Source of the DNA: the human T2T-CHM13v2.0 reference genome, Homo sapiens
Direction: 5' to 3' (one strand)
DNA length: 64,000 bases
NCBI RefSeq assembly: GCF_009914755.1
Contig: NC_060936.1
In this document: in pieces, positions 42,925 through 53,335 of the stretch
Layout: every line of letters begins with the position of its first letter
How positions within the stretch are numbered: the stretch's first letter is position 1
Translations under genes and position numbers: made by a program
Notes under the pieces: generated by a model
What the model was told of the DNA's origin: nothing
The model's database searches: none
The model's input: the letters and a program-made list of their open reading frames with translations, nothing else

Positions 42925-43070
42925 CAATTCTTCGTTATTGGTCTTGATGGGACTGGAGCTCAATGCTTCAGAACAAATTTCCTTGATGCCAAGATTTTAT
43001 TTTCAGTAGATATAAAATGTCAGTTTTCTTCAAAGGAAGACCAATTACCTTGACAAACAAAAAGAACATG
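42925..43070 (-). pseudogene. C-type lectin-like receptor, exon 5 (first CTLD exon, disrupted)
   Basis: Acceptor tatcttctAG|. Across frameshifts it reads ACSFC/CQGNWSSFEEN*HFISTENK/SWHQGNLF*/ALSSSPIKTNNEEL, with C/W spacing matching CD94 (CQEKWVGYRCNCYFISSEQKTWNESRHLCASQKSSLLQLQNTDEL). Donor degenerate (|gaagtg). Confidence 0.88.
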
Positions 43071-43335
43071 CTAGAAGATAACTTTGTCCCCTACAGTCAT
43101 TCAGTGAATTATAATTTTTGCATTATTGTTTTCAATTGTCCTCCCTAACTTCAAGAGAAGTCCTGATATACGAGAGTTTTTCTGACAAGTACACCATTGT
43201 TAACTAACTTTGGTCTTATATTTACAAAGTGAATATTTACCTAATACATATTTACATATATTTACAAAATACATCTAGATTTAAACAGCTTATGTGTGAT
43301 AGATACCAACATTCCCATTGTAAACCAATACTTAC

Positions 43336-43410
43336 CTTTGTTTTGTGATATTATGTTGCAATGTGCAGTCTCAATGGTTGCCTTATTCAGGATCTCTTTA
43401 AGACAATGAA
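43336..43410 (-). pseudogene. C-type lectin-like receptor, exon 4 (stalk)
   Basis: Acceptor aatttcAG|, 75 nt, phase 1-1, open: (I)HCLKEILNKATIETAHCNIISQNK. Perfect donor AAG|GTAAGT. Confidence 0.85.
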
Positions 43411-45249
43411 CTGAAATTCACAATATTTGCAAAAGAGAATACTATTATCATTTTCAAACATTTGGGATGGCAAATAAAACAGATATCAAAAATTTCTTAC
43501 ACACAATTTATGCATTCATTGTTTTAATTGAATGAAGAACAAATTGTAAATTATCATTTGCAATTTATATTAAGGTATGAACTTTTACTTATGAAATATA
43601 TTTATGAGTCAATGACTGGTGATTTAATAAGCACATGTTTGTATATATGATTGATGTTATTCTAAGCAGTTAGTTAACCCAGGCAGTCAGGAAAAAACAA
43701 CCTATGCTATTTTTGCAGCAAACACCTTAGACGTAGTGTACGTCTAATCAGTCACAAAGTACTGTTTATCACGACAATGCTTCATATATCTGTTTCCTTC
43801 TTCACAGTAACATAGCTTTTTCCTACTCAGATTGTCATTATTTTTATGCTGAGGTATTTTAATATTATACAAACTCTCTCTAATTTTCACTTTCCAGTAT
43901 TTTCCACAAATTGCCTCCAGAGTAAACACCCCCAAAGCATACCTTGAATAATGGTACCCTTTCAATCATCTTCAGAGGCTATGAATTATTTATATGCTAA
44001 AATTCTAATTCATTAACATTAAAATTATACAAAATTGTACCATTTACACAATTGTACTTTTTTTAACCAGTTATATTTTTAACTACCTTCATATATGAAA
44101 TCTTTAAACTACATGATTTTGCATTGATGTGTTCTATAATATTTTTATGAATCTGGCACTAGAGATGGCACAATTTGAATTTTTAAAATAAGAATGAATA
44201 TCCCTAATTTGAATTAATTTTAGTCTTAATGGTCCGTGGTCACGTATAAAAGATTTGGGAGACTTGACATGAATTGTAGAAGAAATCTGTCTGCATTTCT
44301 GCTTTACTGAGATCAGATCTGATCCCTGTCCAATAACAAAATCTTATAATATTTTACCCACAAAGTTTCAGTTTAGTCCTGTACAAACTCATGTCCCCAT
44401 GATTTTAAGTTATCTGAACCATGTTATTCCAGCTTGAGTACCAGATGCATTGCTAGACTCATGGAAATAAATGTCATAAGTATTGCTGAGTTGTTCCCTC
44501 GCCAGACCTAGAGTATTGAAGTTGAGTATTTTTCTTATGATGATTTAATGGAAAAAGAAGAAAATATTGTCACTAGTTTTCCATTTGCTCAAATTTGCAA
44601 TTTTCCATTTTGTTCCCAAATTGGGTTATTCCGTATTTTAAATATATTCTCATAGGATGGATGTGGCTAGTCATGGACATGATCTTAGTTGAACGTGAAA
44701 CAACCACTTCCCTATCTTTTTCAAAATGAACTAATGAGAAACCAAATAATCAAGCTAAGTCTTAAGTCATCACTGCATAAGCAAGCCATGCATGAATTAT
44801 TTTTCTACCCAAGAATATTCTTGTTTATTTAGCATTTCCTCCTCTATTTCTGTCATATATTTGATGATTTCTGGTTCATTTATGCTAAACCATTATTATC
44901 CACTGAAGGTTTCCCTTCTAATTGGTAATTCACAGATAGAATTAGCTTATTTGATGCAGGGAACTACTTCTAATGGTTCAACTGCTTCTCTCCTCCCTTT
45001 TGGTTATTAGGACAAAGTTTGATAATAGTAAAACAGAGGGAAAAGCTTCTGTTTATCAGGATATTTTACCAATTTATATTTTATTTCATTTAAAAGTAAG
45101 TATTCACTACACTTAAACTATGCTAGTGTTCTCAAACATTACCAAGGTGTAATTATCAAAGTAGTATGTCCAGTTGCTACAAAACACAGCTTCGCTCTAG
45201 CAATAAAATAGTCTTATATGGAGTGGTAATTCATTTTATCGAATTGTAT

Positions 45250-45770
45250 TATTTTCCAGCTTTATTTAAGTATGACTGACAACAATTGTGTATATTTAGG
45301 GTGTACAATGTGGTATTTTGGTGTAAGTAGACCTGCATAATAATTCCCACAAGCAACTTAATATGTCCATCGTCTCACATAGTTACCTTCTGTGTGTGTG
45401 TGTGTGTGTGTGTGTGTGTAGTGAGAACACTTAAGATCTACTCTCTTAGCTAATTTCAAGAGTCCAATACATTATTGTTAACCATAATTACCATGGTGAA
45501 CATTAAATCTCTAGATTTTATTCGTCTTTTAACTGAAAGTTTGTATCCTTTGACCGATATCTCTCCATTTCTTCTACTGCCTAGACTCTGGAAACCACCA
45601 TTCTACTCTCTGTTTCTCTAAGTTCAACTTAAAAAAAAAGATTCCACATATAAGTGATATCATGCAATACTTTCTGTGTCTGGCTTATTTCACTAAGCAT
45701 AATGTCTTCCAAGTTCATCCATGTTTTCAAAATGGCAAGATTTCCTTTTTTTAAGGCTGAATAATACCCT
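45250..45770 (-). mobile_element. L1MA 3' end with internal (GT)n
   Basis: Antisense L1MA 3' UTR; GT repeat at 45391-45419. Confidence 0.8.
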
Positions 45771-46189
45771 CTCTATATATATGTACACATACATGCAAAC
45801 ACACACACACACATATTTACTTATATTTTACCTGTTATTTTTAGCACCATAATCTACCTAGAAATTATTTTTTACTTTTAAAAAAATTTTTTCAAAATCT
45901 ATTGTTAAATATCTGTCATTTTGAGGAACTTATTGTATCATATTATATATAGACATACACATATATGCACACATTATTTGTACACAGAGACATATGACTT
46001 TATTATTAGACTCCTTCCTTTTGTTTTGATATATTTACTTTATAAACTTATCATGTGAAATTACTCACAGCTTTATTTCTAGAAAGGCTATATCCCTACC
46101 TCTTTTGTTAATATATTTCAACATATATATCTGGGCTGAAACAGCACAACATCATTACAGAGGAGTATCCATTAGAATCTTAGGCCATA

Positions 46190-51160: not shown

Positions 51161-51502
51161 CTGTTCAAAAAGAGAGAAGTTGGCTAATGTCATCAATGGA
51201 AACCAGATTCAGGAGTTGATACTGAAAAGAACTGTCACCAAGAATATTTAACCCACTTGAATTGGTCTAAAATGTAAGTTCATGGGAGCACCGTGCTGTG
51301 GGAAAATATACCTCAGCTTGTGGGGAGTAATTCTAAAAATTATTTTGCAGATTTAGGTGCATCCTGAGAAGATATTAATATTTTGATGTAGATATGCGCT
51401 GTTTATGAACTAACAAGTTGCCCTAGTAAAGAACTCTTCCAAAGGCTACAAAAGAGCACTTCAGAAATCCTACTGTGGGTTTAGTTCATTTCCCTCCCGT
51501 AA

Positions 51503-51800
51503 TTTTTTTTTTTTTTTGAGACAGAGTCTCGCTCTGTCGCCCAGGCTGGAGTGCAGTGGCGTGATCTTGGCTCATTGCAACTTCTGCCTCCCAGTTTCAA
51601 GTGATTCTCCTGCCTCAGCCTCCTGAGTAGCTGAGATTACAGGTGCATACCACCATGCCCGGCTAATTTTTGTATTTTTAGTAGAGACGAGGTTTCACCA
51701 TGTTGGCCAGGCTGGTCTCGAATTCCTGACCTCAGGTGATCCGCCTGCCTTGGTCTCCCAAAGAACTGGGATTAGAGGCGTGAGCCACCGCAGCCGCCTC
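51503..51800 (-). mobile_element. AluS (in intron 2 of the lectin-like gene)
   Basis: Antisense dimer. Confidence 0.9.
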
Positions 51801-52285
51801 CACTCCCTAATTGTTTTTTTTTTTTTTTAAACTATATCTTTCATCTTTGTAACAGAACTAGGTTAAGAACAAAACTCCAACTTTTGCTGTTGGCCAGACA
51901 GGTATTCTGTGACCGTTTTGATAAAAGTTACTTCATCGTGTTCATCATGAGGTATCTCACATCCTCCATTTGTAGAAATACTGAAGCACTAAAAAGACAC
52001 TTAACTTTTTCGAAATTAAAATATCAAAACCAGGAAATTGTGTATGAAACATTCTTTTTCCATGATTTTGGTACACCATTCTAAGTCATCGTGGCCATCG
52101 CCGCCTGGTTGACCATTCTCATTTGCTCTTAACAGAGCACTGTAGGTTACTATGACCCACTAAAAAGTGTAGGGACAAGAAATCAATCCTGATTCAAACA
52201 TTAGCTCAAGAATATTTGTTTTCGTGATTAGTTCATTAAAATATTTAAGCCAAAAAGTGAATCTAGAGTTTTAAATGGTTTTTAC

Positions 52286-52381
52286 CTTTTGTTTTCAAAG
52301 TTTTAGTTATTTTTCCGTTCTGGATATTTGAAGAACAATGAACTTTGAGGTCTGAGTATATTATACTTTCCTCAGAAAACT
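52286..52381 (-). pseudogene. C-type lectin-like receptor, exon 2 (cytoplasmic, ITIM)
   Basis: Acceptor ttttttAG|, 96 nt, phase 1-1, open: (E)FSEESIIYSDLKVHCSSNIQNGKITKTLKTK. Donor AAG|GTAAAA. IIYSDL (52347-52364) fits the ITIM consensus I/V/L/S-x-Y-x-x-L/V. Confidence 0.88.
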
Positions 52382-53253
52382 CTAAAAAAGATTAAAAAAA
52401 TGCATCCAACAACTATAATCCAGCTATATGTATATACACATACTTATATGATAAATAAACATATAATTAAATGGCATATTATATGTGATACAAATTGTCA
52501 CATTTTATAATCATAAGAAAGTTTTAAAATTGGCTCCATTTTTTTTTGCTTTGTGAAATGTGGTAAATTCTTACTCTTTTAAAAAAATTCTTAGTTCCTT
52601 ATCTATAATATACAGGTAACAATACAATAATCGTTTATAGATCTATTGTAGAGATTAAGTTAATGTATATAAAGTCGATAGCATAGTGTTTGAAACATAT
52701 TAACCACTCAATATGTGTTTTTCTTTAGTAGTAGTAATAATACCGGTGGTGTAGAATAGTAATTGTAAGAATATAATGGGCATTAGCATCTGCAGTAAAA
52801 TTGGAAATAGAAGCAAGAGTAGAAATATTCAAATTAATTTAAATGCCTATTTCTGCCTCCTCTTATAGTTGAATTTAATCCTAATGAAAGGAGCATGAAA
52901 AGCCGTTATCTAATTCTCACTAAATAAATTCCTTCCACAACATATTGCGTGTATTCCTTCAGTACAAGTGAAGCAGAACTCATAGACACCAAAAGTCAAT
53001 GACATTCACCAAAAGTCAATAACATTACCCTAAATAATATTAAACCTAGTGCAACTGTAAATATTTACTTACCAAACTATAATTTTCTGAGATTTAAGTC
53101 CCCTCTAATTAGAAAATCCTGAACTCATTTATAAAGACAAAAGATTTTCAAATCCTCCTCTAAAAGTACCTGGTTATGAACTCATTATTTTTAATATTAT
53201 TTTCTCATCAAAAGAAGAGATGATTTAGCAATAACAGCAGAATCTGGTTTTAC

Positions 53254-53335
53254 CTGTATTTATTTCATGAAATGCCACTGGCGAAGGTTGAAGATCATGA
53301 GAGAGCCTGGACAGTGCTGATGTCTCTAGTTCCAT
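53254..53335 (-). pseudogene. C-type lectin-like receptor gene/pseudogene, exon 1 (start exon)
   Basis: Minus strand acaATGG (strong Kozak), 82 nt open: MELETSALSRLSHDLQPSPVAFHEINT+g. Phase-1 donor CAG|GTAAAA joins exon 2 in frame. Confidence 0.7.

What the first reader, a model, noticed from the sequence alone, without database searches (positions are those of the whole stretch)
43045..53335. Asymmetric decay: signalling/TM/stalk exons intact, lectin exon broken - possible 120-aa lectin-less inhibitory membrane protein
Seen: exons 1-4 (337 coding nt) have no stop, no frameshift and intact splice sites. Exon 5 carries about three indels, a nonsense codon and a dead donor. In the spliced frame exon 5 gives ACSFCLSR-TAA (stop at 43047-43045), for 120 aa in total, keeping the ITIM, the TM helix and four extracellular Cys. 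A minus-strand AATAAA lies ~45 nt after this stop (43001-42996) and another at 42173-42168. With its donor lost, exon 5 could act as a terminal exon and escape NMD. Inference: a truncated, disulfide-capable ITIM chain could pair with a neighbouring lectin receptor or act as a ligand-independent SHP-1/2 recruiter (compare NKG2F/KLRC4, which has a truncated CTLD). The asymmetry could also be chance.
Basis: partly seen in the sequence, partly recalled or inferred. Interest (0 to 1): 0.8.

Follow-up and report, generated by a model that had tools for sequence, protein, structure and literature searches.

The report
Conserved lectin-less ITIM membrane protein gene
Next to the CD94 gene, humans carry an unnamed gene for a roughly 110-120-residue membrane protein that has an inhibitory signalling motif but no lectin domain, and the same short protein is predicted in many placental mammals, so it is probably a real, unstudied immune-receptor chain, not a decaying leftover.

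Summary
Four minus-strand exons (337 coding nt) are open with GT-AG introns. They encode an ITIM (IIYSDL), an uncharged transmembrane helix and a short stalk. The next exon is a broken first C-type-lectin exon.

The asymmetry is not a chance or recent primate decay. Database searches found 34 proteins at E<=0.001, all unnamed and all without a Pfam domain. They come from primates, artiodactyls, bats, carnivores, pangolin, shrew, manatee and elephant. Most are 103-119 aa. Eighteen sequences end three residues after a conserved stalk cysteine. None has a lectin domain.

The family therefore looks like a KLR-type gene that lost its lectin domain early in placental mammals and kept the signalling/TM stump. 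The TM exon, the ITIM tyrosine and the reading frame are conserved; most other residues change at close to the neutral rate.

- The ACSFCLSR tail and the four extracellular Cys. RefSeq and a Chlorocebus model use the 43048 acceptor, giving ...GNWSSFEEN.
- The "dead" donor. A GT is still present.
- The poly(A) hexamers, which are no more frequent than chance.

Human expression, dimerisation and SHP recruitment remain untested. No paper was found on this gene.

The parts
53254..53370 (-). Exon 1. ATG at 53335-53333 (context AACAATGG), with an in-frame TGA two codons upstream. Encodes residues 1-27 of the cytoplasmic tail.
   Evidence: hub annotation (XM_047446042.1). The N-terminus ME(P)ET... 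is shared by orthologues.
52286..52381 (-). Exon 2: cytoplasmic residues 28-59. Contains the ITIM IIYSDL (52364-52347; Tyr36 codon 52358-52356) followed by a Lys-rich juxtamembrane stretch.
   Evidence: A canonical [IVLS]xYxx[LVI] motif is present in 23 of 26 aligned sequences, and Tyr36 is invariant. Human and Pongo are identical at 32/32.
51077..51160 (-). Exon 3: the transmembrane helix (residues 60-87). It has no charged residue and is the best conserved part of the protein.
   Evidence: 26 of 26 sequences have one uncharged TM of 24-28 aa with a net-positive N-flank. Mean pairwise identity is 0.69 against 0.44-0.56 elsewhere. Nine of the 14 invariant columns lie here.
43336..43410 (-). 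Exon 4: extracellular stalk (residues 88-112) with Cys90 and Cys105. Most non-simian orthologues stop inside this exon, 3-4 residues after Cys105; simians read to its end.
42922..43070 (-). Relic of the first C-type-lectin-domain exon (149 nt; phase 1 in, phase 0 out). TGA at 43022-43020 replaces the Cys of CYFIS, and there are about three frame changes. A GT remains at 42921-42920.
   Evidence: The Chlorocebus model ends GNWSSSEEN, the same stop.
41818..43048 (-). RefSeq terminal exon (coding 43048-43020, then 3' UTR). AATAAA at 43001-42996, 42173-42168 and 42015-42010; ATTAAA at 42781-42776.
   Evidence: Hub annotation. The hexamer count is no higher than composition predicts.

Best explanation
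LOC124902875 is the human orthologue of an unnamed gene that is widespread in placental mammals. It encodes a type II single-pass membrane protein of about 110 aa (120-121 aa in human). The protein has a cytoplasmic tail with one ITIM, an uncharged and unusually conserved TM helix, and an ectodomain stalk of about 25 aa with a conserved Cys. There is no lectin domain.

The gene descends from a KLR-type lectin receptor gene of the NK gene complex. Its first CTLD exon survives in human as a broken relic 266 nt downstream of exon 4.

Inferred mechanism:
- Tyr36 is phosphorylated by Src-family kinases and recruits SH2 phosphatases (SHP-1/2 or SHIP).
- Lacking a ligand-binding domain, the chain works as an inhibitory signalling subunit.
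- It is brought to its site of action by TM/stalk-mediated (possibly disulfide-linked) self-association, or by pairing with another chain.

What is shown: gene anatomy, relic identity, cross-species conservation of ORF, length, TM and Tyr, and single copy in human. What is inferred: expression in human, topology in cells, dimerisation, phosphatase recruitment and the partner.
For: Anatomy:
- The four exons are open, with GT-AG introns all in phase 1.

Orthologues:
- An exon-2 ORF search found 6 named primate models.
- A profile search of 1.84e9 representative proteins gave 13 hits at E<=1e-3. Twelve are 53-112 aa; the other is a 1159-aa protein that I judged spurious from its partial repeated matches, without fetching its sequence. 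None of the twelve is long enough to hold a CTLD.
- A profile search restricted to proteins of 44-343 aa gave 34 hits, all 'uncharacterized' or unnamed, with Pfam '-'. They come from primates including Microcebus, 5 artiodactyls, 7 bat genera, 5 carnivores, Manis, Sorex, Trichechus and Elephas.
- 18 of the 33 sequences examined end exactly 3 residues after the stalk Cys.
- The gene tree gives Afrotheria | Primates | Laurasiatheria.
- Only this locus matches in the human genome; the next best hit has E>=0.24.

Conservation:
- 14 columns are invariant in 21 sequences including human: Tyr36, nine TM-exon residues, L95 and C105, besides M1 and E2.
- The Pongo and Aotus TM exons are identical at 28/28. 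P is about 8e-4 at the neutral identity of 0.775.
- Under my assumed neutral rates, keeping the ORF, ATG and splice sites has P of about 6e-4 at d=0.12 and about 1e-5 at d=0.19 per lineage.
- Local control: a macaque-like unspliced contig differs from human at 16 of 69 codons, with 2 stops and indels, in the intron, against 3 of 32 in exon 2 (Fisher one-sided P=0.08).
- Four models from four species skip exactly the 84-nt TM exon, which confirms shared exon boundaries.

Transcripts:
- Unnamed contigs of 1.6-1.8 kb carry the whole spliced ORF (P0030, P0035). Given introns of 0.9-7.7 kb in human, I infer that these are transcripts.
Against: - The RefSeq model is a prediction.
- At the amino-acid level the protein changes at close to the neutral rate I simulated. 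Human-Pongo is 105/112 (neutral about 0.93). Human-Chlorocebus is 98/112 = 0.875 (neutral about 0.87-0.88). Human versus non-primates is 45-67/112 (neutral about 0.48).
- The human tip is longer than Pongo's (0.047 against 0.019). I count 5 human-side changes by eye, which is compatible with relaxed constraint.
- Simians lack the stop codon that ends exon 4 in other mammals, and their tails are variable and unconserved.
- The ITIM -2 residue is Thr in two cercopithecines, and the +3 residue is Phe in manatee.
- Cys90 is absent in Afrotheria and three bats. Four bat models lack Cys105.
- The species list is ascertained: only genomes where a pipeline called an ORF appear. No rodent, lagomorph or marsupial was found.
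- Neutral rates are recalled assumptions, and I had no orthologue DNA for dN/dS.
- Synteny of the non-human genes was not checked.
Confidence: 0.6

Rival explanations
1. The family is real in other mammals, but the human (or hominine, or catarrhine) copy is drifting. On this view it is a transcribed unitary pseudogene or lncRNA whose 112-codon frame is still open only because too little time has passed.
For: - Amino-acid divergence within catarrhines equals my neutral simulation.
- The human tip is 0.047 against Pongo's 0.019.
- P(frame, ATG and splice sites kept) since the Pongo split is 0.37 under neutrality, so openness in human alone proves nothing.
- The ancestral stop and the NxT sequon of the stalk are lost in simians, and their tails are variable.
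- The macaque-type tail exon carries a stop in human (32453-32397).
Against: - The frame is open in every simian model seen: human, Pongo, Chlorocebus, M. mulatta and Aotus for exons 1-4; Symphalangus, Piliocolobus and M. nemestrina for the exons they include. At about 0.12 substitutions per site of summed branches, P is about 6e-4 (my assumed rates).
- Human exon 2 is identical to Pongo (32/32) and the TM exon is 27/28.
- All 14 family-invariant residues are kept in human.
- The only indel seen among simians is in frame (Aotus).
Confidence: 0.25
2. Exons 1-4 are not a gene of their own. They would be an alternative 5' module that is spliced to lectin exons elsewhere (for example a KLRE-type gene in species that have one), so that the short proteins are truncated models.
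For: - The locus lies where KLRE lies in rat, between Gabarapl1 and Cd94 (PMC2910302, passages).
- Camelid KLRE is reported to carry an ITIM (PMC6614441, passages).
- Primate models splice exon 4 to several far-downstream exons.
- A weak second CTLD-like relic lies at 16991-16845.
Against: - 18 of 33 sequences have a stop inside exon 4, three residues after Cys105, which excludes in-frame joining to anything downstream.
- No protein with Lectin_C appeared among the 34 hits in the 44-343 aa range, although cattle, camel and elephant proteins are in that database.
- No CTLD exon 2 or 3 was found in the window: 0 Lectin_C hits in 140 ORFs and best tblastn E of 0.065.
- The human exon 4 has no alternative GT in its last 37 nt.
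Confidence: 0.07
3. The ORFs are an annotation artefact. On this view a conserved non-coding transcript or regulatory element happens to be callable as an ORF, and pipelines propagate the call.
For: - All named members are automatic predictions.
- No Pfam family matched.
- The Atlas model of the dog protein has pLDDT 0.43.
- Amino-acid change is fast.
Against: - Non-coding conservation would not keep a 103-119-codon frame, the same start, the same stop position in 18 sequences and only in-frame length changes across at least eight orders.
- It would also not produce a hydrophobic 24-28-residue segment with the positive-inside pattern in 26 of 26 sequences.
Confidence: 0.05

Closest known systems
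KLRC4 / NKG2F (human NKC gene with a truncated lectin domain; properties recalled, not tested here)
   Same: It is encoded in the NK gene complex, has type II topology, lacks a complete CTLD, and its function as a stump is debated.
   Different: No sequence similarity was detected: searches of the human genome with P0021 and P0002 hit only this locus. Here the TM has no charged residue, and the truncation is shared by many mammalian orders instead of being primate-specific.
KLRE1 with KLRI1/KLRI2 (rodent and ungulate heterodimers; Westgaard 2003 PMC2193914, passages; Schwartz 2017 PMC5350243, passages and supplement)
   Same: The chromosomal interval matches (Gabarapl1-Klre1-Cd94 in rat). Intron phases are 1,1,1 then 0. 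The logic is the same: one chain carries the signalling motif and another the partner function.
   Different: Rodent KLRE1 has a CTLD and no ITIM; this protein is the reverse. KLRE is reported in cattle, camel and elephant, where this short gene also occurs, so the two seem to be separate genes. The literature lists KLRE as absent from human and mouse lemur, with no fragment.
CD94 (KLRD1), the neighbouring gene
   Same: The relic exon is most like CD94's first CTLD exon among the 60 kb of KLRD1/KLRK1/KLRC4 region tested (E=0.003, CQ..W....N[C/stop].FIS.E.K).
   Different: CD94 has a full CTLD and a 'signal-less' short tail. This gene has the tail and no CTLD. The N-terminal exons show no similarity.
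Transmembrane adaptor proteins such as SIT1, and the DAP12/DAP10 signalling chains (recalled knowledge)
   Same: These are small single-pass proteins with a very short, Cys-bearing ectodomain, no ligand-binding domain and tyrosine motifs in the tail. SIT1 carries an ITIM.
   Different: Those are type I/III in orientation and are unrelated in sequence. DAP12 and DAP10 use a charged TM residue and activating motifs. This protein is type II, has an uncharged TM and derives from a KLR gene.

Membership tests
KLR / group V C-type lectin-like receptors of the NK gene complex | Type II single-pass topology (N-terminus inside) | tested here: met
   One uncharged hydrophobic segment of 24-28 aa in 26 of 26 sequences. 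The N-flank net charge is +1 to +7 and the C-flank is -2 to +2. This is a sequence prediction only.
KLR / group V C-type lectin-like receptors of the NK gene complex | C-terminal C-type lectin-like domain (Pfam Lectin_C) | tested here: not met
   0 Lectin_C hits in 140 minus-strand ORFs at 33000-43100 and in 6 proteins. Pfam is '-' for all 34 homologues. Only a broken first CTLD exon remains.
KLR / group V C-type lectin-like receptors of the NK gene complex | Location in the NKC and the KLR exon plan (separate cytoplasmic, TM and stalk exons; intron phases 1,1,1 then 0 after the first CTLD exon) | tested here: met
   The hub annotation places the gene between GABARAPL1 and KLRD1. The relic is 149 nt with phase 1 in and phase 0 out. 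The KLRE1 phases 1,1,1,0,2 are from PMC2193914 (passage).
KLR / group V C-type lectin-like receptors of the NK gene complex | Inhibitory members: a cytoplasmic ITIM and no charged TM residue | tested here: met
   Human has IIYSDL. The motif is canonical in 23 of 26 sequences, and 0 of 26 have a charged residue in the TM. Function was not tested.
KLRE1 orthologue | Position between GABARAPL1 and KLRD1 | tested here: met
   The human position is from the hub annotation. The rat gene order is from PMC2910302 (passages). Orientation and synteny in other species were not checked.
KLRE1 orthologue | Sequence similarity to KLRE1 proteins | not testable with these tools
Indirectly, no CTLD-bearing protein appeared.
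KLRE1 orthologue | One gene per genome taking KLRE's place | tested here: inconclusive
   The short gene is present in Bos, Camelus and Elephas, where KLRE is also reported (PMC5350243, PMC6614441, PMC13756075, passages). This argues for two genes, but loci were not compared.
KLRC (NKG2) family, including truncated KLRC4 | Sequence similarity to the KLRC N-terminal or CTLD exons | tested here: not met
   The whole human genome was searched with P0021 and P0002, and only this locus matched. The relic's best match in the 60 kb holding KLRD1, KLRK1 and KLRC4 is KLRD1.
Transmembrane adaptor proteins (a functional class, not a homology family) | Short ectodomain, no ligand-binding domain, tyrosine motif(s), Cys for dimerisation | tested here: met
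   The ectodomain is 20-30 aa in non-simians. Tyr36 and C105 are invariant in 21 sequences.

The most novel reading that the evidence does not exclude
Placental mammals, humans included, would possess a dedicated lectin-less inhibitory signalling chain encoded beside CD94. It would be a type II 'ITIM adaptor' that uses its conserved TM helix and stalk cysteine to join signal-less KLR chains (CD94, KLRE or others) or itself. It would set a ligand-independent or alternative inhibitory tone in NK and T cells, making it an unrecognised component of the CD94/NKG2 checkpoint axis.
Probability: 0.15. Interest if true: 0.85.

Novelty: new variant of a known kind. Interest (0 to 1): 0.66.

Why it matters
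The NK gene complex has been annotated repeatedly. Comparative papers list the human GABARAPL1-KLRD1 interval as empty of KLR genes, with KLRE 'deleted among all primates' (PMC5350243, passages and Supplementary Table 2).

If a small ITIM-bearing chain has been kept for about 100 My in this interval, three things follow:
- The inventory of inhibitory NK/T-cell signalling molecules is incomplete.
- It would be a clear case of a receptor gene surviving as its signalling stump.
- It would be a new candidate partner or modulator for CD94-type receptors, which are drug targets.

Domain-based surveys that search for the lectin domain cannot see this gene, which would explain why it was missed.

My searches of the paper library found nothing on it. 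These were eleven LOC names of this gene and its orthologues plus XM_047446042, and three topic searches. Subscription journals and supplements that are not held could still describe it.

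Tried and rejected
- Pfam on 140 minus-strand ORFs (33000-43100) and on 5 family members plus the read-through relic found nothing relevant.
- A PDB search with the third relic segment found 0 hits, so the third frame change is my reading only.
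- The human genome was searched with the relic's peptide and DNA and showed no paralogue.
- The search for homologous proteins with 'longer' searched only 344-2000 aa and found nothing. It was a wasted search that says little.
- CTLD exons 2 and 3 were sought in the whole window with KLRD1 and KLRK1 exon peptides taken from the genome. Nothing convincing appeared; the best hit was E=0.065, on the + strand.
- A viral-contig scan with the family profile found no relative.
- ESM Atlas: the family's own cluster has 61 chordate members. The next clusters were 'KLRF1' at 0.91 and 'NKG2-F-like' at 0.79. These are leads only.
- I first read the elephant tail ...SISEEN as sharing the human relic's stop. 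I rejected this, because it aligns as well with exon 4's own ...IISQNK.
- I considered that the locus is simply the KLRE pseudogene. I rejected this as the main reading because the short gene coexists with KLRE in several species.
- Hao et al. 2006 was not held.

Full report
**1. The observation**

On the minus strand there are four exons: 53335-53254 (from the ATG), 52381-52286, 51160-51077 and 43410-43336. Together they make 337 coding nt with no stop. Every intron starts with GT and ends with AG, and all four junctions are phase 1. The ATG has A at -3 and G at +4, and an in-frame TGA lies two codons upstream.

RefSeq uses an acceptor at 43048, which gives 121 aa ending GNWSSFEEN, with TGA at 43022-43020. 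The RefSeq acceptor has 14 of 18 pyrimidines upstream, against 9 of 18 for 43070. A Chlorocebus model ends GNWSSSEEN, which is the same exon and the same stop.

**2. The broken exon is a real lectin exon**

- Reading 43070-42963 in frame, with X at the TGA, and searching PDB gave four hits at E<=10. Three are starts of C-type lectin domains (CLEC4A at E=0.076), with the X on the Cys of CYFIS.
- I fetched 60 kb of the human genome holding KLRD1, KLRK1 and KLRC4. Against it, the best match is KLRD1's first CTLD exon (E=0.003).
- A global DNA alignment of the 149-nt relic with that 152-nt exon scores 24. Shuffles give 6.3 +/- 3.5, and 0 of 500 reach 24.
- The relic keeps the KLR exon size and phases (1 in, 0 out) but needs frame changes 2->3->1->2. 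The shift at ...AAAA(T)CTTGG is visible. The last segment had no PDB hit, so it rests on my reading.
- A GT still stands at the in-phase donor place (42921-42920), so 'dead donor' is too strong.
- No relic of CTLD exons 2 or 3 was found. There were 0 Lectin_C hits in 140 ORFs, and exon-peptide searches of the whole window gave a best E of 0.065. Both methods are insensitive to decayed exons.

**3. What changed the picture**

A search with the stop-to-stop ORF around exon 2 found predicted proteins in six primates. They were Pongo, Symphalangus, Chlorocebus, Macaca nemestrina, Piliocolobus and Aotus.

A profile of these, run against 1.84 billion representative proteins, gave 13 hits at E<=1e-3. 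Twelve are 53-112 aa. The other is a 1159-aa protein that I judged spurious.

A wider profile, run against named proteins of 44-343 aa, gave 34 hits. All are 'uncharacterized' or unnamed, and none has a Pfam domain. They come from:
- primates, including Microcebus;
- Bubalus, Bos, Dama and two Camelus species;
- seven bat genera;
- Canis, two Panthera species, Callorhinus and Crocuta;
- Manis, Sorex, Trichechus and Elephas.

Most are 103-119 aa. Eighteen of the 33 sequences I tabulated end exactly three residues after the stalk Cys (...HCKII-stop). These 18 are every Laurasiatherian sequence that has that Cys, plus a gibbon isoform. Lemur and manatee end one residue later. Simians read to the end of exon 4 (...CNIISQNK) and then carry unrelated tails. 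The exons for those tails map to human at 24810-24775 and 32453-32397 (the latter with a stop in human) and further downstream.

Four isoforms in four species skip exactly the 84-nt TM exon, which shows that exon boundaries are shared. The gene tree separates Afrotheria, Primates and Laurasiatheria as the species tree does. In the human genome only this locus matches.

**4. What is conserved**

- All 26 aligned sequences have one uncharged hydrophobic segment of 24-28 aa with a positively charged N-flank, which indicates type II topology. Non-simian ectodomains are 20-30 aa.
- A canonical ITIM is present in 23 of 26 sequences. The exceptions are two cercopithecines (T at -2) and manatee (F at +3).
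- Mean pairwise identity is 0.69 for the TM exon, against 0.44-0.56 for the others. This used 21 of the 26 sequences; five with odd tails or heads were dropped.
- Fourteen columns are invariant in those 21 sequences, human included: M1, E2, Y36, W63, C64, F70, Y74, I76, L78, M84, A86, K87, L95 and C105.

**5. How strong is the selection?**

I had no orthologue DNA, so there is no dN/dS. A simulation from the human CDS used my assumed rates: 0.12 indels per substitution, 80% of them frameshifting, and recalled neutral distances. It gives the probability of keeping the frame, ATG and splice sites as 0.37 at d=0.016, 0.023 at d=0.06, 6e-4 at d=0.12 and 1e-5 at d=0.19. Retention in at least eight orders, and across the simian tree, is therefore not neutral.

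The amino-acid sequence, however, changes fast:

| Comparison | Identity observed | Neutral expectation |
|---|---|---|
| Human-Pongo | 105/112 | about 0.93 |
| Human-Chlorocebus | 98/112 | about 0.87-0.88 |
| Human-Aotus | 96/112 | about 0.78 |
| Human versus non-primates | 45-67/112 | about 0.48 |

Constraint is concentrated in a few places. The Pongo and Aotus TM exons are identical at 28/28 (P about 8e-4). Human and Pongo exon 2 are identical at 32/32.

A local control points the same way. A macaque-like unspliced contig differs from human at 16 of 69 intron codons, with two stops and indels, against 3 of 32 exon-2 codons (one-sided P=0.08).

The relic's three frame changes in 149 nt fit about 100 My of neutral decay (expected 3.4) better than about 35 My (expected 0.9; P(>=3)=0.06). 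This again uses my assumed rates.

**6. Interpretation**

A KLR-type gene beside CD94 lost its lectin domain, probably before or early in the placental radiation. Its signalling, TM and stalk stump has been kept as a small protein. Because stops sit at slightly different places just after Cys105 in different clades, and never before it, the required core runs to about Cys105+3. The simian tails are dispensable.

The likely mode of action is ITIM-dependent recruitment of SH2 phosphatases. The chain would be positioned by TM or stalk contacts with itself or a partner. This part is inference from the motif and from how KLR heterodimers work: CD94/NKG2A (recalled), and KLRE/KLRI (PMC2193914 passages; Saether 2008, cited in the papers I read but not read itself).

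Whether the human copy is still used is open. It keeps all invariant residues, but the human tip is long (0.047 against 0.019), and openness since the Pongo split is uninformative.

**7. Literature**

- Westgaard 2003 (passages) found no human KLRE1 counterpart.
- Schwartz 2017 (passages and Supplementary Table 2) lists KLRE as absent from human and mouse lemur, and as deleted in primates.
- Futas 2024 (passages) states that KLRE and KLRI are missing in carnivores.
- The 2026 Genome Biology and Evolution paper (passages) finds KLRE in more orders but not in primates.
- The camel paper (passages) reports an ITIM in camelid KLRE.
- None of these mentions a short lectin-less gene here.
- Searches for eleven LOC names of this gene and its orthologues plus XM_047446042, and three topic searches, found 0 papers.
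- Supplements of the 2026 paper (for example its table of genes not annotated as KLRs) were not examined and could bear on this.

**8. Limits**

- All orthologues are automatic predictions or unnamed contigs.
- Synteny outside human was not checked.
- Absence in rodents is only non-detection.
- Neutral rates are assumed.

Noticed in passing
window 16845-16991 (minus strand): This is a possible second relic of a first CTLD exon (...CYYFI-stop-...PES...C...), directly 3' of an Alu. tblastn with the KLRK1 first CTLD exon gave E=0.039. The PDB search gave only NKG2D, at E=0.19 and 7.6 bits per domain. It is a weak lead. If real, it could be the remains of the KLRE-type gene expected in this interval.
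   Followed up: partly
window 24775-24810, 32397-32453, 30764-30872, 16188-16295 and 12890-12970 (minus strand): The 3' coding exons used by the Pongo, Macaca and Piliocolobus models of this gene map here in human. The macaque-type exon has a stop in human. This implies a long minus-strand transcription unit with variable 3' exons, running antisense inside the intron of the long KLRD1 isoforms that start at 19682.
   Followed up: partly
L002:2409-2410 (G000 contig 12, KLRD1): KLRD1's first CTLD exon (L002:2257-2408) is followed by GC, not GT, which suggests a GC-AG intron.
   Followed up: no
window 37622-37714 (minus strand): A short ORF matches the L1 ORF1 dsRBD-like domain (Pfam Tnp_22_dsRBD, E=8.4e-5, just above its cut-off). 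It is an L1 remnant between the gene's 3' end and its distal exons.
   Followed up: no
proteins P0003, P0007, P0014, P0037: Predicted isoforms in gibbon, red colobus, jaguar and spotted hyena skip exactly the TM exon (84 nt, in frame). This would give a soluble cytoplasmic ITIM peptide joined to the stalk.
   Followed up: no
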